Source: a virus (Duplodnaviria > Heunggongvirae > Uroviricota > Caudoviricetes). Taken from it: 11,850 nt of DNA. How positions within the stretch are numbered: position 1 is the first letter of the stretch; each line of letters starts with the position of its first letter. Positions 334 to 5,668 of this stretch are shown in pieces. The position numbers were made by a program, and so were the translations under genes. The stretch is from the IMG/VR virus record IMGVR_UViG_2623620491_000015, positions 1 to 11,850 of that record, one strand, 5' to 3'. The notes beneath the pieces are model-generated. The model was not told where the DNA came from. It made no database searches and saw only the letters and a list, made by a program, of their open reading frames with translations.

Positions 334-826
334 TTTAATACCTCGCAAATTCGCCGAAACATTCATCCGCTTTATTTGCATATACTTTATGAGCTTCCTT
401 TGGGTCATCGTAAAACCCAAGATTAACTTTCCTCTTGTTGATTACGATTTGCGCCCTCCATTTTCTTGATTTCTTATCCCATGAAACGCCTTTATATCCT
501 GATTTGTTATTTGCCTTTTTGTTTACGTTTTGGATGTTTTGAGATCGAGTTGCCAATCTAAGATTTGCTATACGATTGTCATCCCTAACGAGATTTATGT
601 GGTCGATATCACTTTTTGGTAGACTGCCATTCATATAGAGCCACGCCAGCCTGTGTGCCTTATAAAGTTTTCCATCGACTTTTATTACCCAGTAGCCTTC
701 GCTACTCTTATGCCCTGCGATATCCCCAGCATTCATTCTCTGGCATTTCTTTACTTTCCATGTGAATTTCCCTGTTAACTCATCGTAGAGAAGGACTTCT
801 TTTAGTCTCTGCTGAGTTATTTGATT
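232..826 (-). mobile_element. Homing-endonuclease cassette inserted in the 5' part of ninB (HNH-AP2 coding segment plus a replacement ninB 5' end)
   Basis: NinB-like sequence sits on both sides: residues 1-32 at 922..827 and from residue ~35 at 231 downward. The intervening segment is visibly AT-rich compared with flanking DNA and encodes the endonuclease domains plus a new ninB start with its own SD. Boundaries are approximate. Confidence 0.5.
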
Positions 827-922
827 GATTGGTTTGGTTGGGTCTGGAAGGATTTGCTGTACTGCGTGAATAGCGTTCTGCTGATGTGCTGGAGATCGAA
901 TTTCAAAGGTTAGTTTTTTCAT
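335..922 (-). CDS. HNH (HNH_3) + AP2-domain homing endonuclease, fused in frame to the first 32 residues of lambda-type NinB
   Basis: Track ORF 335..940 starts at TTG; the ATG at 922 (MKKLTFEI...) has a purine-rich SD (GGGAGAGGGAAG) just upstream. Motif DIDHINLVRDDNRIANLRLATRSQN is HNH_3-like; SGYKGVSWDKKSRKWRAQIVINKRKVNLGFYDDPKEAHKVYANKA is AP2-like. The first 32 aa read like the NinB N-terminus. Confidence 0.8.
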   Translation of the reverse strand: MKKLTFEIRSPAHQQNAIHAVQQILPDPTKPINQITQQRLKEVLLYDELTGKFTWKVKKCQRMNAGDIAGHKSSEGYWVIKVDGKLYKAHRLAWLYMNGSLPKSDIDHINLVRDDNRIANLRLATRSQNIQNVNKKANNKSGYKGVSWDKKSRKWRAQIVINKRKVNLGFYDDPKEAHKVYANKADECFGEFARY

Positions 923-936
923 GACTTCCCTCTCCC

Positions 937-970
937 CCAAATAAAAAGGCCTGCGATTACCAGCAGGCCT
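937..970 (-). terminator. tR2-like intrinsic terminator between helicase and ninB region
   Basis: Perfect 8-bp inverted repeat aggcctgc / gcaggcct (947-954, 963-970) with an 8-nt loop. On the minus strand it is followed by TTTTATTTGG. Confidence 0.6.
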
Positions 971-995: not shown

Positions 996-2372
996 TCATA
1001 CGTCAGCCCCTTGTGCATATCGTCTGCCACGCGCAGCAGGTGCATTTGATGCTGTGCAAATCTGTCTGGCTTCATCCTGGTCACATGCAACAAAGTGTCC
1101 GTTACAGAACCGCTGGTAAACCGTACCAAGCGAGCCAAAACGGTTTTTCGTCACGATGATTTCAGCAAATGGCGCGGCGCTACTGTTCTCGTCATATACC
1201 GCTTCCCGATAGAGCATGATGATTGAGTCTGCGTCCTGTTCAATGCTTCCTGAATCACGCAAATCTGCGTTTGTCGGGCGTTTGTTTGGTCGCTTCTCAA
1301 CATCGCGCGAAAGCTGACTTAGGGAGATAACAGGCGTTTTCAGGTCTTTCGCCATCGCCTTCAGGCTTCCGGAGATGTGAGCAATTGCTAGGTCGTTGCG
1401 GTCTGCTTTCGGCTTCTCAATCAGGCCAAGATAATCCGCCATGATTAGAGACAGGTTTGGATTTTCCTGTTTATGCCGTTCTGCGATTGAGCGTATTTCT
1501 TCGACCGATAACCGCGAGGCATCGACTACCCATACATCCAAATCTGCAAGCTGACTCATGCCGTTAGCAACACGCGCCCAGCCTTCGTCATCCATCGATG
1601 CAGGATTTCGCAGTACGCTAACCGACATCCTCCCGGCGTTGGCAATGCTTCGCTCTGCAATCTGCAATGCGCTCATTTCCATTGAGAAAATCAATACCCC
1701 GCGCCGGACGTCAGAACCAGGAATAACGCGGCTTGCAACGCCTTCGGCAATCTTCAGCGCCAGTTCGGTTTTCCCCATACCAGGACGAGCAGCGATTATC
1801 ACCAGGTCTTCTGCGTTCATCCCTCCGGTGATGGCATCAAGTTCTTCGATTCCGGTCTTCAGGGTATCGGACTCTTCTCCGTTCCTCAGACGCCTGTCAA
1901 GCGTGTCAGTGTAGTCAGTGATGATTTCCCCTAACCGTACAGGTTTAACCTCGTCACGGGGCTTTCTGATAGCTGAGAGACGTTTTACAAGTTCATCCAT
2001 CGCCTGACTCGATGCGTCGATGGTTCCGCTCTGAATTGGTTCACGCATTTCATCCATGATTTCCAGCACCAGACGGCGGTGATAGTTATCCGCGACCATT
2101 CCGGCATATCCCTTCAGGTTTGCGGCACTCGGGCAGTTTTTGCTGGTCATCAGGATTGACGTGAAATGCTCCTCTCCGCATTCCTCAGCAACCATCAGCG
2201 CGTCGATTAGGTTTCTGTTTCGCGCCTGCTTGCGGATAACCTCGAAGGCTTTCCGGTAGAGCGGAATTGAAAACGCTTCCGGCTCCAGCGTTGCCAGAAC
2301 GTCACTGGCGGTTGGAGTTAATCCACCAATCAGCAAGCCACCGATAACGCTCGCTTCGATATCCTGTCTCAT
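996..2372 (-). CDS. Replicative DNA helicase, DnaB family (P22 gp12-like)
   Basis: 458-aa ORF with Walker A ([15 protein letters not shown]) and DnaB-type RecA-fold motifs ([29 protein letters not shown]). ATG at 2372 overlaps the upstream gene's stop (ATGA). Confidence 0.9.
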
Positions 2373-3316
2373 GCAATCCCCCTGTCTGCAAACTTCCCTT
2401 CCCGTACTCCCGTTAACGAATCTTCCCTCAGCAGGTAATCAAAATCTGCCGTCCAGCCCGTGTCGTTGTCTCCGAAGTAAAACGGCTTGGCCTGATGCAC
2501 AAACGCCCTGACATACGCTCTGAAACCGTCCACGTTTGGCGTTTTCAGTTGCGGAATGATTTTCTTCAGGCGACGTTTGCGTTTCTCGTTGACCGCAACA
2601 GCGTGTGGCAGTCTGTCACCGACTTCGGTGTTGTAGGCATTCAGGAAGGATTCATAGTCGATTCGTTCTGCCTTGCGACGTTCAGGTTTAACCTGCCCAT
2701 CGCCTCCCCCATTGGGGGGTAGGGGGGTATTATTTATATTCTTGTTAATACCTTCTTGTTCATGATGTGCGGTTGTTTGTGCGGCTTCATGTGCGCTTTC
2801 ATGTGCGGCATGTACGCTGAAAGCCGCGCCATTACTGGCTTCGTCATGTGCGGCGTCATGTGCGGTTGTTTGTGCGGCTTCATGTGCGGGTGAATTGTCC
2901 ATTTTTTGAGCATATTCATGGTAATTTGTGATGGTGATCACACGACCTTTTTGCTTCTCTCCATCAATGGTGATCATCCCCTCTTTCACAAAAACCTGAA
3001 GCATCCGCTCAACCTGATCACGGCTTGCCGGCTTGCCATGCCTGTCGCATAACTGAAGACCTAAATCAGCTGCTGTCACAACCAGTTGACCGGGTTGCAG
3101 ATGCCATTCATGACCTTTGAAATTCGCTTTGTATGGCTTTCTGGCGGCATTCAGGAGAAGGTTTTCCCACAGGGTGCGAAGATAAACATCTTTCGCCCAT
3201 GACTGTTTCAGAATGCTCCGGTACAACGGAATGTAACCAGTTTTCTGGTTCTCCATCCTGTTGCTCCTGCGCTCGTGTGCGGCGCTGAAATCGTAGATTT
3301 TTGCTGTGTTGCTCAT
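2369..3316 (-). CDS. Replication initiator protein (lambda O / P22 gp18-like) with a repetitive Ala/His-rich linker
   Basis: 315-aa ORF. The N-terminus [10 protein letters not shown] resembles lambda O (MTNTAKILNF). It sits immediately upstream of, and translationally coupled to, the helicase gene. The internal repeat region coincides with the iteron-like DNA repeats. Confidence 0.8.
2766..2894. repeat. Eight copies of a 12-bp direct repeat TGTGCGGnnnnn in two clusters of four; candidate ori iterons
   Basis: Units at 2766, 2778, 2790, 2802 and 2847, 2859, 2871, 2883 (tgtgcggttgtt, tgtgcggcttca, tgtgcgctttca, ...). A G-rich then AT-rich stretch follows at 2710-2760 (ggggggtaggggggtattatttatattcttgttaata). 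This is the same arrangement as ori-lambda inside O. Confidence 0.55.
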
Positions 3317-3602: not shown

Positions 3603-3669
3603 GTTGGATGTTGTTAAAATTCCATTTGTATTTGATCAGAACGCTCGGTTGCCGCCGGGCGTTTTTTAT
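3603..3669 (+). ncRNA. oop: oop-like antisense RNA overlapping the 3' end of cII
   Basis: Plus-strand TATAAT at 3591-3596. The 3' end CAGAACGCTCGGTTGCCGCCGGGCGTTTTTTATT matches the lambda oop terminator as I recall it. It is antisense to the last ~55 nt of cII. The 5' end is an estimate. Confidence 0.6.
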
Positions 3670-3910
3670 TGGTGAGTCCATCAAGCGCATACTTAAAAGC
3701 CCTGCTAATCGGACTGATATCTGATGCCATTCCGAAAGCACACAAGACCGAGGCAATAAATCTCCAGTCCGTTCTGCTTATCTTCGATTCATGACAGCCA
3801 ATCATCTTTGCCAGACCGCGCTGGGTAAGTGTTGACAGGTTGATGAGTAAATCGGTTTCTGCGCGATCAACATCGCGCTGTGATAGTTTGCTGTAACTTG
3901 TTTGTTCCAT
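3614..3910 (-). CDS. cII: Transcriptional activator CII
   Basis: 98 aa. The C-terminus LTNKKRPAATERSDQIQMEF and the central ...ESKISR... match lambda CII. Position between cro and the replication genes fits. Confidence 0.9.
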   Translation of the reverse strand: MEQTSYSKLSQRDVDRAETDLLINLSTLTQRGLAKMIGCHESKISRTDWRFIASVLCAFGMASDISPISRAFKYALDGLTNKKRPAATERSDQIQMEF

Positions 3911-4019: not shown

Positions 4020-4235
4020 TTAAGCGGCTTTGTGTTCCGGCGGGAACACGTCATCAAGACTGACTTTTGCGCCTAACTTGTTTAGGCACGCAACAAGAGC
4101 ACGGCATGTTTTAAGGTCTGGGAAGCGACGACCAGATTCCCAATGTCCGATAGCTCCCTGTGTGCATCCAACCGCCTTAGCAAGTGTTGTTTGAGAGATA
4201 TTCAGTGACTCTCGATATTTTCGTAGGTTGCTCAT
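4020..4235 (-). CDS. cro: Cro-like HTH repressor (71 aa)
   Basis: Internal ATG at 4235 with GGAGGG SD directly upstream. HTH region SQTTLAKAVGCTQGAIGHWESGRR. Divergent from cI across the operator region. The 5' extension of the track ORF is discarded. Confidence 0.8.
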   Translation of the reverse strand: MSNLRKYRESLNISQTTLAKAVGCTQGAIGHWESGRRFPDLKTCRALVACLNKLGAKVSLDDVFPPEHKAA

Positions 4236-4346
4236 ATGCCCTCCATAGTAACCATGAAACAATAATACGATATGTACTTTTGGAATGCAAACAAAAAATA
4301 CATCTTGTGCATGGATGGTTTTAGTACATAGCGTAATAATAAGGAT
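4236..4346. promoter_or_regulatory. OR region: divergent PR/PRM with repeated ~17-bp operator motif
   Basis: Operator-like sites at 4262-4280 and 4321-4339 are inverted copies (AGTACATAnCGTAnTA) and are partly palindromic. PR candidate on the minus strand: -35 TTGCAT (complement of 4285-4290), 17 bp, -10 TATTAT (complement of 4262-4267). cI may be nearly leaderless. Confidence 0.6.
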
Positions 4347-5006
4347 ATGAAAATGAAATGGTATGAACTGGCTAGATCCAGAATGAAAGAGCTCGGCATA
4401 ACTCAAGAGAAGTTAGCTGAAGAGCTTGGTATGACGCAGGGTGGAATTGGTCACTGGTTGCGCGGATCTCGTCATCCATCTCTTGACGAGATTGGTGTGG
4501 TGTTTAAATACCTTGGTATTGATAACGTCTCATTCAACCACGACGGTACATTTTCACCTGCTGGCGAATACTCATCTGCCCCCGTTAAAAAACAATATGA
4601 GTACCCTGTTTTTTCTCATGTTCAGGCCGGGATGTTCTCGCCTGAGCTTAGAACCTTTACCAAAGGTGATGCGGAGAGATGGGTCAGCACAACCAAAAAA
4701 GCCAGTGATTGTGCGTTTTGGCTTGAAGTTGAAGGTAATTCCATGACCGCACCAACAGGATCCAAGCCAAGCTTTCCTGACGGAATGTTAATTCTCGTTG
4801 ACCCTGAGCAGGCTGTTGAGCCAGGAGATTTCTGCATAGCCAGACTTGGCGGTGACGAGTTTACCTTCAAGAAACTGATCAGGGATAGCGGTCAGGTGTT
4901 CCTACAACCACTAAACCCGCAATATCCAATGATCCCATGCAATGATAGCTGTTCCGTAGTAGGGAAAGTTATCGCCAGCCAGTGGCCTGAAGAGACATTT
5001 AGTTAA
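4347..5006 (+). CDS. cI: CI repressor (LexA-like S24 autocleavage domain); lambda-type C-terminal domain with a non-lambda N-terminal HTH domain
   Basis: The C-terminal ~125 aa ([22 protein letters not shown]...[11 protein letters not shown]) are near-identical to lambda CI as I recall it. N-terminal HTH is [25 protein letters not shown]. Alternative start ATG at 4353 with AAGGA SD. Confidence 0.9.
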
Positions 5007-5038
5007 CAGCCTCACCACTCTAAAACACACAACAATAA

Positions 5039-5066
5039 CCCGACCTTAGCGTCGGGTTTTCTTTTT
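5039..5066 (+). terminator. Intrinsic terminator downstream of cI
   Basis: cccgac-cttagc-gtcggg hairpin followed by TTTTCTTTTT. Confidence 0.7.
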
Positions 5067-5085
5067 CCAAAATATAAATCAATAA

Positions 5086-5160
5086 AATACAAAGTGTTAT
5101 AAAAAACCAACCACATTTAGAACATTTTGTATTGACTCAATAAAGTACACATCGTACTAT
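5086..5160 (+). promoter_or_regulatory. OL/PL: leftward early promoter with operator sites
   Basis: -35 TTGACT (5132-5137), 17 bp, -10 TACTAT (5155-5160). Site AGTACACATCGTACTAT (5144-5160) matches the OR motif. Inverted pair aatacaaagtgtt (5086-5098) / aacattttgtatt (5121-5133) lies upstream. Confidence 0.6.
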
Positions 5161-5206: not shown

Positions 5207-5240
5207 GCTCTTTAACTTCGATGGGGCGCTGACAAAGCGC
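5207..5240 (+). promoter_or_regulatory. nutL (boxA GCTCTTTAAC + P22-type boxB GCGCTGACAAAGCGC)
   Basis: boxA-like at 5207-5216 and a perfect 5-bp stem / 5-nt loop hairpin at 5226-5240, in the PL leader upstream of N. Confidence 0.75.
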
Positions 5241-5359: not shown

Positions 5360-5668
5360 ATGACGGTAATCGTGTACGGAAAATCAACATTTGCAGGAAA
5401 TGCCAAAACTCGCCGTCATGAGCGGCGCAGAAAGCTGGCTATCGAGCGTGATGCTATATGCAACATCATCGATTCGATCTTCGGCACAGACAGTGAGGAA
5501 CCTGTTCAGGAAGCCCCGAGAAAGCGTTTAAGCATTTCTGAAAAAGCAATATCACTCGGCATCATTAGCAAATCAAATACAGATGCGAATAGCGGAAGCG
5601 TTTGTTTGCCTGAAGTTGCACTGTATGCTGCTGGTTACAGAAGGCAAAAACTAATTACAGCGAGGTAA
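5360..5668 (+). CDS. N: Antitermination protein N (P22 gp24-type arginine-rich motif)
   Basis: ATG at 5360 with GAGGA SD. N-terminus MTVIVYGKSTFAGNAKTRRHERRRKLAIER matches the boxB-binding peptide of P22 N. The upstream part of the track ORF is discarded. Confidence 0.85.
   Translation: MTVIVYGKSTFAGNAKTRRHERRRKLAIERDAICNIIDSIFGTDSEEPVQEAPRKRLSISEKAISLGIISKSNTDANSGSVCLPEVALYAAGYRRQKLITAR

What the first reader, a model, noticed from the sequence alone, without database searches (positions are those of the whole stretch)
4236..5160. Hybrid immunity region: lambda CI C-terminal domain with a different N-terminal HTH and a shared operator motif at OR and OL
The CI C-terminal domain is near-identical to lambda, but the DNA-binding domain and Cro are different. 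A ~17-bp motif AGTACAnAnCGTAnTA recurs twice at OR in opposite orientation and once over the PL -10 region. This is the pattern expected for repressor operators of a non-lambda immunity type.
Basis: partly seen in the sequence, partly recalled or inferred. Interest (0 to 1): 0.5.

Follow-up and report, generated by a model that had tools for sequence, protein, structure and literature searches.

The report
Known VT2-Sakai-type phage immunity region

Summary
The pattern AGTACANANCGTANTA occurs exactly three times in the window (4263-4278 on the minus strand, 4323-4338 and 5144-5159 on the plus strand), against none in 200 shuffles. The CI C-terminal domain is 133/136 identical to lambda CI. DNA identity jumps from background to about 94% at 4593-4596. 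The N-terminal HTH domain (27/74 identical) and Cro are not lambda's.

There are six 17-bp, partly palindromic operators with consensus WARTACR-N3-YGTAYTW: OR1 4263-4279, OR2 4296-4312, OR3 4322-4338, OL1 5143-5159, OL2 5118-5134 and OL3 5085-5101.

The type is already described. The cro-OR-cI(N-terminal) module is 94% identical in DNA to VT2-Sakai, the Stx1 and Stx2-II phages of strain Morioka V526, Nil2, 2851 and the PA phages; Cro was compared directly only with the Stx1 phage and is 100% identical. GenBank AP005153 already annotates six "putative operators" at exactly the homologous positions. The CI with a lambda-like C-terminus and a divergent N-terminus was reported for VT2-Sa in 2000. 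The module is in 776 of 5426 complete E. coli genomes. I found no report of the cognate repressor binding these sites.

The parts
4020..4235 (-). cro (71 aa, HTH_3 fold)
   Evidence: ORF. Pfam HTH_3, E=4e-12. 100% identical to the 'putative cro' of the Stx1 phage AP005153. 35% identical to the CI N-terminal domain, with a near-identical recognition helix, TQGAIGHW versus TQGGIGHW.
4262..4291 (-). PR promoter: -35 TTTGCA (4291-4286), 18-nt spacer, -10 TATTAT (4267-4262)
   Evidence: Consensus scan. It lies at the same place as the 'putative major rightward promoter' of AP005153. Predicted, not measured.
4263..4279 (.). OR1, TAATACGATATGTACTT; overlaps the PR -10
   Evidence: Exact motif hit. 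Leave-one-out PWM score of 19.2 bits, above all 11,792 non-operator positions. Homologous to the annotated 'putative operator' at AP005153 43515-43531.
4296..4312 (.). OR2, AAATACATCTTGTGCAT; the weakest site. Its centre is 43 bp upstream of ATG 4347.
Evidence: 13.2 bits in the full PWM. The leave-one-out score is only 3.0 bits, and 2 of 11,792 other positions score as high. Homologous to the annotated operator at AP005153 43483-43499.
4322..4338 (.). OR3, TAGTACATAGCGTAATA; overlaps the predicted PRM -10 TAATAA (4334-4339)
   Evidence: Exact motif hit. Leave-one-out score of 16.5 bits, rank 1. Homologous to the annotated operator at AP005153 43457-43473. The PRM assignment is an inference from register and geometry.
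4347..5006 (+). cI repressor (219 aa from ATG 4347, or 217 aa from ATG 4353, which follows the Shine-Dalgarno AAGGA at 4341-4345)
   Evidence: ORF. Pfam HTH_3 plus Peptidase_S24. Matches full-length lambda repressor 3bdn at E=3e-96. An in-frame TAG at 4329-4331 rules out the upstream start that some GenBank records use.
4353..4595 (+). cI N-terminal HTH domain plus linker, non-lambda (VT2-Sakai type)
   Evidence: 27/74 identical to lambda. 94-99% identical to CI of VT2-Sakai, the Stx1 and Stx2-II phages, 2851-like phages, Dewey and phi458. The next relatives are only about 50% identical (Salmonella P22-like phages).
4596..5006 (+). cI C-terminal (S24 protease, dimerisation and cooperativity) domain, lambda type
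   Evidence: 94.3% nucleotide identity to lambda 37233-37637. 133/136 aa identical. The Ala-Gly cleavage site (A92-G93) and the Ser130/Lys173 dyad align with lambda A111-G112 and S149/K192.
5037..5058 (+). Intrinsic terminator after cI
   Evidence: 8-bp GC-rich hairpin followed by a T-run. Window 5029-5064 is 89% identical to the lambda sequence just downstream of rexB. So rexA and rexB are absent here.
5085..5101 (.). OL3, AAATACAAAGTGTTATA
Evidence: Leave-one-out score of 15.2 bits, rank 1. Homologous to the annotated operator at AP005153 41286-41302.
5118..5134 (.). OL2, TAGAACATTTTGTATTG; overlaps the PL -35
Evidence: Leave-one-out score of 13.2 bits, rank 1. Homologous to the annotated operator at AP005153 41253-41269.
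5143..5159 (.). OL1, AAGTACACATCGTACTA; overlaps the PL -10
   Evidence: Exact motif hit. Leave-one-out score of 19.1 bits, rank 1. Homologous to the annotated operator at AP005153 41228-41244.
5132..5160 (+). PL promoter: TTGACT, 17-nt spacer, TACTAT
   Evidence: Consensus scan. Conserved in Dewey, VT2-Sakai and the Stx1 phage.
5207..5240 (+). nutL (boxA GCTCTTTA 5207-5214; boxB hairpin GCGCTGACAAAGCGC 5226-5240)
   Evidence: Read directly from the sequence. The assignment as P22-type nut rests on my own knowledge of the P22 boxB sequence.
5360..5668 (+). N antiterminator
   Evidence: Pfam N_peptide, E=2e-38.
3614..3910 (-). cII activator; a possible PRE box, TTGCTGTAACTTGT, lies at 3888-3901 (+)
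   Evidence: Pfam Phage_CII, E=2e-34. The TTGC-N6-TTGY match lies at the lambda-like position over the start of cII, but it is not significant on its own.

Best explanation
The region is the immunity (lysis/lysogeny switch) module of a P22-like E. coli prophage, of the already described VT2-Sakai / Stx2-II immunity type. cI and cro are transcribed divergently from PRM and PR across a tripartite right operator (OR1-OR3). A second tripartite operator (OL1-OL3) covers PL, upstream of N. All six sites are 17-bp partial palindromes with consensus WARTACR-N3-YGTAYTW. They are presumably read by the near-identical recognition helices of CI (TQGGIGHW) and Cro (TQGAIGHW). By analogy with lambda, CI dimers at OR1/OR2 and OL1/OL2 would block PR and PL. 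CI at OR2, centred about -42/-43 from the predicted PRM start, could activate PRM. OR3 would give negative autoregulation and would be the preferred Cro target. RecA-stimulated self-cleavage at Ala92-Gly93 by the Ser130/Lys173 dyad would induce the prophage. The repressor is a mosaic: everything from the hinge onward (4596-5006) is lambda's C-terminal domain at 94% DNA identity, joined to an unrelated DNA-binding domain. This fits the usual modular exchange among lambdoid phages. Shown here: the sequence anatomy, the homology, the site statistics and the conservation. Inferred: binding, the order of occupancy, PRM activation, and leaderless cI translation.
For: The motif is non-random. Six sites stand out in a PWM scan, and five of them outrank every other position in the window when left out of the model. 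The consensus with up to 2 mismatches finds only these six sites plus one weak extra in 11.85 kb. Half-site positions are invariant in 67/72 alignment columns, against 73/111 spacer columns, across window, Dewey, 2B8, Nil2, Stx1 phage and VT2-Sakai (Fisher p about 1e-5; the lineages are few and not independent). OR1, OR3 and OL1 overlap -10-like hexamers (TATTAT, TAATAA, TACTAT) in one identical register. For domains and catalytic residues, and for the mosaic junction. The module is the same in VT2-Sakai, the Stx1 and Stx2-II phages, Nil2, 2851, PA phages, Dewey and Louie. AP005153 annotates six 'putative operators' and the PR, PRM and PL elements at exactly the homologous coordinates. The literature covers the rest: VT2-Sa CI has a lambda-like C-terminus and a divergent N-terminus (Fattah et al. 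2000, as summarised in PMC10742460); predicted OR1-3 and OL1-3 are reported in Sakai-type Stx2a phages (PMC4587872); Stx-phage CI clade I is the closest clade to lambda CI (PMC8951638).
Against: I found no report of the cognate repressor or Cro binding these sites. The only EMSAs located used lambda CI on VT2-Sa operators, with micromolar Kd. OR2 is a weak match: its leave-one-out score is 3.0 bits and 2 non-operator positions score as high. The operator spacings are 33 and 26 bp at OR and 25 and 33 bp at OL. They differ from lambda's 24/23 and 24/20, which I computed from the operator coordinates in the lambda record. Lambda-style pairwise cooperativity therefore cannot simply be assumed. PRM and its start site are predictions only.
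Confidence: 0.9

Rival explanations
1. The three motif copies are similar only because they are promoter cores (-10 hexamer plus upstream spacer) of PR, PRM and PL, and are not repressor-binding sites.
For: All three exact copies overlap a -10-like hexamer in the same register.
Against: The sites have dyad symmetry. Three more sites with the same half-site (OR2, OL2, OL3) do not overlap a -10 hexamer, and OL2, OL3 rank first in leave-one-out scans while OR2 is weak. Conservation is concentrated in both half-sites, not only in the hexamer. The layout matches the lambda-type tripartite operator pattern.
Confidence: 0.04
2. The switch is functionally lambda-immune. Lambda CI and this CI recognise each other's operators, or form mixed oligomers through the shared C-terminal domain, so the region behaves as a variant of imm-lambda rather than as a separate immunity type.
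For: Fattah et al. [quoted passage not shown] Lambda CI binds VT2-Sa operators in EMSA at 3.7-6.4 uM. The C-terminal domain is 98% identical to lambda's.
Against: No lambda consensus operator is present, even with 3 mismatches allowed. The recognition helix and N-terminal domain differ (27/74 identical). Lambda CI affinity for VT2-Sa sites is 10-30 times weaker than for lambda OR1 and OL1, and close to the level expected for nonspecific binding. I could not read the primary paper.
Confidence: 0.08
3. The module is a decaying remnant in a defective prophage, and the repressor/operator system is no longer functional.
For: The window comes from a bacterial chromosome-type context: there are 100% matches in E. 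coli genomes. Whether the whole prophage is intact was not examined.
Against: cI, cro, cII and N are intact ORFs with full-length family matches. The catalytic and cleavage residues are intact. The same module, 98% identical, is carried by phages isolated as viable particles, namely Dewey, Louie, vB_EcoP-683R2 and phi458. It is present in 776 genomes.
Confidence: 0.05

Closest known systems
Immunity region of Stx2 phage VT2-Sakai (Sp5), and of the Stx1 and Stx2-II phages of E. coli O157:H7 Morioka V526, Nil2, 2851, 1717 and the PA-series Stx2a phages
   Same: Cro is 100% identical to that of the Stx1 phage, the only member of this group whose Cro was aligned here. The CI N-terminal domain is 94-95% identical with an identical recognition helix. 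There are six operators at homologous positions with the same half-site, the same PR and PL elements, and a lambda-type CI C-terminal domain.
   Different: About 6% DNA divergence, mostly in the inter-operator spacers and the central operator bases. OR1-OR2 spacing is 33 bp rather than 32 bp. There is no ~1.3-kb insert between cI and OL, so OL lies 880 bp from OR. The flanking N/nut module and the replication module come from a P22-like phage rather than from an Stx phage.
Escherichia phages Dewey, Louie, vB_EcoP-683R2, vB_EcoP-720R6 and phi458 (P22-like or other temperate coliphages)
   Same: 97.4-98.5% DNA identity over the matched stretch; for Dewey, Louie and the two vB_EcoP phages that stretch runs through cro, OR, cI and OL/PL. 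This is the same sub-variant as the window.
   Different: A few substitutions, for example G instead of T at 4328, which reopens the upstream reading frame in Dewey. cII and the replication genes also differ.
Bacteriophage lambda immunity region (cI, cro, OR, OL)
   Same: Overall switch architecture: divergent cI and cro, three operators at OR and three at OL, and OR1 and OL1 about 16-17 bp upstream of the predicted starts of PR and PL. The CI C-terminal domain is 133/136 identical and includes the cleavage site and the catalytic dyad. The terminator downstream is homologous.
   Different: The DNA-binding domain, Cro fold family, operator sequence and operator spacings all differ, and rexA/rexB are absent.
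Salmonella P22-like phage repressors (SPN9CC, g341c, epsilon34, ST64T and L c2)
   Same: Nearest relatives of the N-terminal domain outside the VT2-Sakai group, at 49-54% identity. They have the same HTH_3 plus S24 architecture.
   Different: Too divergent to share specificity. No P22-type operator consensus is present.

Membership tests
LexA / lambda-CI type autocleaving (S24) phage repressors | [quoted passage not shown] | tested here: met
   Pfam HTH_3, E=8e-11, residues 9-56.
LexA / lambda-CI type autocleaving (S24) phage repressors | C-terminal Peptidase_S24 domain with a Ser/Lys dyad and an Ala-Gly cleavage site | tested here: met
   Pfam Peptidase_S24, E=9e-29. A92-G93, S130 and K173 align with lambda A111-G112, S149 and K192.
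LexA / lambda-CI type autocleaving (S24) phage repressors | RecA-stimulated self-cleavage | not testable with these tools
   This needs biochemistry or an induction assay.
VT2-Sakai / Stx2-II immunity type | Same Cro protein | tested here: met
   100% identity to the Cro of the Stx1 phage AP005153, and 99% to that of Dewey.
VT2-Sakai / Stx2-II immunity type | Same CI DNA-binding domain, including the recognition helix | tested here: met
   95% identity over residues 1-81 to the Stx1, Stx2-II and PA phages, and 94% to VT2-Sakai. In the Stx1 phage the substitutions lie outside the [11 protein letters not shown] helix.
VT2-Sakai / Stx2-II immunity type | Same operator set (three sites at OR and three at OL, same half-site) | tested here: met
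   The six window sites map base-for-base onto the six 'putative operator' features of AP005153. Half-site positions are 67/72 invariant.
VT2-Sakai / Stx2-II immunity type | Homoimmunity in vivo (a lysogen excludes phages of the type) | not testable with these tools
   This needs plating tests.
Lambda immunity (imm-lambda) | Lambda CI N-terminal domain and lambda Cro | tested here: not met
   The N-terminal domain is 27/74 identical. There is no nucleotide similarity upstream of 4596. Cro is an HTH_3 protein that aligns only weakly with lambda Cro.
Lambda immunity (imm-lambda) | Operators matching TATCACCGCCGGTGATA | tested here: not met
   No match with up to 3 mismatches in OR or OL.
Lambdoid tripartite OR/OL genetic switch | Divergent repressor and cro genes flanking three operators that overlap PR and PRM, plus a second operator cluster over PL | tested here: met
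   Gene order and strands. Operator positions. Promoter-like hexamers for PR and PL. PRM is predicted only.
Lambdoid tripartite OR/OL genetic switch | Cooperative CI binding and OL-OR looping | not testable with these tools
   The C-terminal domain is lambda's, but the site spacings differ: 33/26 bp and 25/33 bp. This needs binding experiments.

The most novel reading that the evidence does not exclude
The C-terminal dimerisation and cooperativity domain is essentially lambda's. That domain type occurs in 1207 of 5426 complete E. coli genomes, with up to 3 places per genome, and it is joined to more than one kind of DNA-binding domain. This repressor could therefore form mixed dimers, tetramers or octamers with the CI of co-resident, nominally heteroimmune lambda-CTD prophages. 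That would couple their repression and induction, and it might explain the reported VT2-Sa/lambda cross-immunity. The unusual operator spacings (33/26 bp at OR and 25/33 bp at OL) might also mean that this lambda C-terminal domain is used in a different cooperativity geometry than in lambda.
Probability: 0.15. Interest if true: 0.45.

Novelty: already known. Interest (0 to 1): 0.1.

Why it matters
It matters little as a discovery. This is one more copy of a common immunity module, present in about 14% of complete E. coli genomes, including O157:H7 Stx prophages and E. coli W. The practical value is in annotation. It gives exact coordinates for six operators and three promoters in this prophage. 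It shows that the longer 231-aa CI start used in several GenBank records is probably wrong. It is also a reminder that the cognate repressor-operator interaction of this clinically relevant Stx-phage immunity type seems never to have been measured directly.

Tried and rejected
- I could not read the primary papers that first described this type. Fattah et al. 2000 and Sato et al. 2003 are not held, so their content is cited second-hand from PMC10742460 and from the GenBank annotation.
- The supplement of PMC4587872 with the predicted operator sequences is not held as text.
- I looked for lambda, 434 and P22 operator consensus sequences in OR and OL. There were none for lambda or P22. The short 434 pattern matches only at relaxed thresholds and has no meaning here.
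- A seventh operator-like site at 3617-3633 scores 8.3 bits, against 13-21 bits for the six real sites. I treat it as chance.
- The TTGC-N6-TTGY cII-box match at 3888-3901 is not significant statistically (2 found, 1.7 expected). It is kept only as a positional analogy.
- I did not run structure prediction or the large protein searches, because sequence identity to lambda CI (PDB 3bdn) and to described phages already settles the identity.

Full report
**What is in the window.** The window is the early region of a temperate lambdoid phage, drawn in the reverse of the lambda map.
- On the minus strand lie a DnaB-type helicase (996-2372), an O-type initiator (2369-3316), cII (3614-3910) and cro (4020-4235).
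- On the plus strand lie cI (4347 or 4353 to 5006), a terminator (5037-5058), PL (5132-5160), nutL, and an N gene (5360-5668).
- After N come a Rad52-family recombinase, SSB and accessory genes.
- The best whole-window relatives are P22-like coliphages (HF4s, Gally, CUS-3, Kapi1), matched in pieces.
- The central 1.5 kb is 100% identical to prophages in E. coli chromosomes.

**Checking the observation.** None were found in 200 dinucleotide-preserving shuffles. Two matches lie in the 111-bp gap between cro and cI. The third overlaps the -10 hexamer of a TTGACT-17-TACTAT promoter that points at N.

CI carries HTH_3 and Peptidase_S24 domains and matches full-length lambda repressor (PDB 3bdn) at E=3e-96. 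Residues 82-217 are 133/136 identical to lambda. The three differences correspond to lambda precursor S140C, E218D and G237S. The cleavage site (A92-G93) and the Ser130/Lys173 dyad align with lambda A111-G112 and S149/K192. Residues 1-81 are only 27/74 identical.

At the DNA level, identity to lambda is at background up to about 4593 and then 87-100% per 30-nt bin; BLAST gives 94.3% over 4596-5000. This is a sharp mosaic junction in the hinge, just before the YEYPVF motif. Cro is an all-helical HTH_3 protein, not a lambda-type Cro.

The three copies are half of a six-operator set. The sites are:

| Site | Coordinates | Sequence |
|---|---|---|
| OR1 | 4263-4279 | TAATACGATATGTACTT |
| OR2 | 4296-4312 | AAATACATCTTGTGCAT |
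| OR3 | 4322-4338 | TAGTACATAGCGTAATA |
| OL1 | 5143-5159 | AAGTACACATCGTACTA |
| OL2 | 5118-5134 | TAGAACATTTTGTATTG |
| OL3 | 5085-5101 | AAATACAAAGTGTTATA |

- All twelve half-sites have A-C at positions 5-6. The consensus is WARTACR-N3-YGTAYTW.
- In a symmetrised PWM scan of the whole window, the six sites score 13.2-20.7 bits and the next best position scores 8.3.
- When each site is left out of the model in turn, five still outrank all 11,792 non-operator positions. OR2 is weak, at 3.0 bits with two other positions scoring as high.
- That overlap is also why OR2, OL2 and OL3, which carry no -10, escaped the pattern. The 'opposite orientation' at OR only reflects the two divergent promoters.

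**Conservation.** I aligned OR from the window, Dewey, 2B8, Nil2, the Stx1 phage and VT2-Sakai, and OL from the window, Dewey, VT2-Sakai and the Stx1 phage. Half-site positions are invariant in 67/72 columns, against 73/111 spacer columns (Fisher p about 1e-5). The lineages are few and related, so this is a descriptive footprint and not a formal test.

**Likely mechanism (inferred by analogy with lambda).**
- CI and Cro are paralogous HTH_3 domains (35% identity, E=6e-13) with almost the same recognition helix, TQGGIGHW versus TQGAIGHW. This fits two proteins competing for one operator set.
- OR1 and OL1 are centred about 16 bp upstream of the predicted PR and PL starts.
- OR2 is centred 43 bp upstream of ATG 4347. 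With a -10 at 4334-4339, PRM would start at about 4346-4347. OR2 would then sit at about -42/-43, as in lambda, and cI could be leaderless from PRM. The AAGGA at 4341-4345 would serve ATG 4353 on the longer PRE transcript.
- SOS-induced self-cleavage at A92-G93 would inactivate the repressor.
- None of these steps was measured here.

**Unexplained spacing.** Centre-to-centre distances are 33 bp (OR1-OR2), 26 bp (OR2-OR3), 25 bp (OL1-OL2) and 33 bp (OL2-OL3). The lambda record gives 24/23 and 24/20. The cooperativity domain is nevertheless lambda's. A 1-bp indel makes the OR1-OR2 distance 32 bp in the Stx phages.

**Comparison with what is known.**
- The cro-OR-cI(N-terminal) module is 94% identical in DNA to VT2-Sakai, the Stx1 and Stx2-II phages of O157:H7 Morioka V526, Nil2, 2851, 1717 and the PA-series Stx2a phages. 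It is 98-99% identical to the non-Stx coliphages Dewey, Louie and vB_EcoP-683R2; phi458 and vB_EcoP-720R6 match at about 98% over the longer stretch.
- Cro is 100% identical to that of the Stx1 phage. The CI N-terminal domain is 95% identical, and the substitutions lie outside the recognition helix.
- The next nearest N-terminal domains are only about 50% identical (Salmonella P22-like phages).
- GenBank AP005153 (Sato et al. 2003) annotates three 'putative operators' in OR and three in OL, together with PR, PRM and PL. They map base-for-base onto my six sites.
- Fattah et al. 2000, as summarised in PMC10742460, had noted that VT2-Sa CI has high C-terminal and low N-terminal homology to lambda CI. 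They also reported cross-immunity with lambda.
- Yin et al. 2015 list predicted OR1-3 and OL1-3 for the Sakai-type Stx2a phages (PMC4587872).
- Fagerlund et al. 2022 place Stx-phage CI 'clade I' closest to lambda CI (PMC8951638).
- Smith et al. 2012 call this Cro variant 'cro4' (PMC3430580).
- The only binding data I found are EMSAs of lambda CI, not the cognate repressor, on the VT2-Sa sites. The Kd values were 3.7-6.4 uM, against 0.2-0.35 uM for lambda OR1 and OL1.

**Distribution.** The cro-OR-cI(N-terminal) module is in 776 of 5426 complete E. coli genomes, including E. coli W. The lambda-type C-terminal segment is in 1207 genomes, with up to three places per genome. The C-terminal domain therefore circulates joined to several DNA-binding domains, which is ordinary lambdoid mosaicism.

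**Verdict.** It is incomplete, with three of six operators found. It also describes a module that is already in the databases and the literature. Novelty: already known. Interest is low. The residual open points are three: the cognate CI-operator interaction appears unmeasured, the odd operator spacing with a lambda cooperativity domain is unexplained, and possible mixed oligomers with other lambda-CTD repressors remain untested.

Noticed in passing
window 335-940 (-): A 201-aa ORF begins with about 31 residues that I recall as the N-terminus of lambda NinB. It then continues into HNH_3 and AP2 domains (Pfam). It looks like a homing-type HNH endonuclease fused into or replacing ninB.
   Followed up: partly
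window 4311-4331: The upstream ATG at 4311 is the start used for a 231-aa CI in the GenBank records of the Stx1 phage, Dewey and 2B8. In the window it is closed by an in-frame TAG at 4329-4331, inside OR3. The two downstream ATGs (4347, 4353) are conserved across the family. The long annotated CI start is probably wrong.
   Followed up: partly
window 5207-5240 (+) and 4009-3976 (-): There are nutL and nutR elements. nutL has boxA GCTCTTTA and boxB GCGCTGACAAAGCGC. nutR has boxA CGCTCTTTA and boxB CCGCCGACAACGCGG. The N protein carries the arginine-rich motif GNAKTRRHERRRKLAIER. From memory these look P22-type, so a VT2-Sakai-type immunity module is combined with a P22-type N/nut module.
   Followed up: no
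window 5029-5064: The terminator region after cI is 89% identical to the lambda sequence just downstream of rexB. So rexA and rexB are simply absent here. The ~1.3-kb insert between cI and OL in the Stx phages is also absent. This leaves OL only 880 bp from OR.
   Followed up: partly
L007 (Klebsiella phage phiKp_30) 701-1088: This phage keeps cro, OR and about the first 20 codons of cI at 96% identity and then diverges, and no repressor gene is annotated there. It looks like a cI-deleted, probably virulent, derivative of the same immunity module in a Klebsiella phage.
   Followed up: no
window 3617-3633: A weak seventh operator-like sequence, AAATTCCATTTGTATTT, lies at the 3' end of cII. It scores 8.3 bits, against 13-21 bits for the six operators. 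It is probably chance.
   Followed up: no
window 4263-4338 and 5085-5159: Operator centre spacings are 33/26 bp at OR and 25/33 bp at OL, against 24/23 and 24/20 in lambda. The CI cooperativity domain is nevertheless 98% lambda. OR1-OR2 is 32 bp in the Stx phages because of a 1-bp indel.
   Followed up: partly
E. coli genome NZ_CP026085.1 (labelled strain DH5alpha), 1448639-1450139: An assembly labelled DH5alpha, 4.83 Mb long, carries this prophage immunity region at 99.8-100% identity. That is unexpected for a K-12 laboratory strain. It suggests a mislabelled strain or a lysogenised stock.
   Followed up: no
PDB 28tn_A versus window 4023-4235 (-): A solved 82-aa 'lambda repressor-like protein' (28tn) matches this Cro over its full length, by eye about 50% identical, at E=4.5e-17. 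It could serve as a template for modelling Cro on the operator.
   Followed up: no
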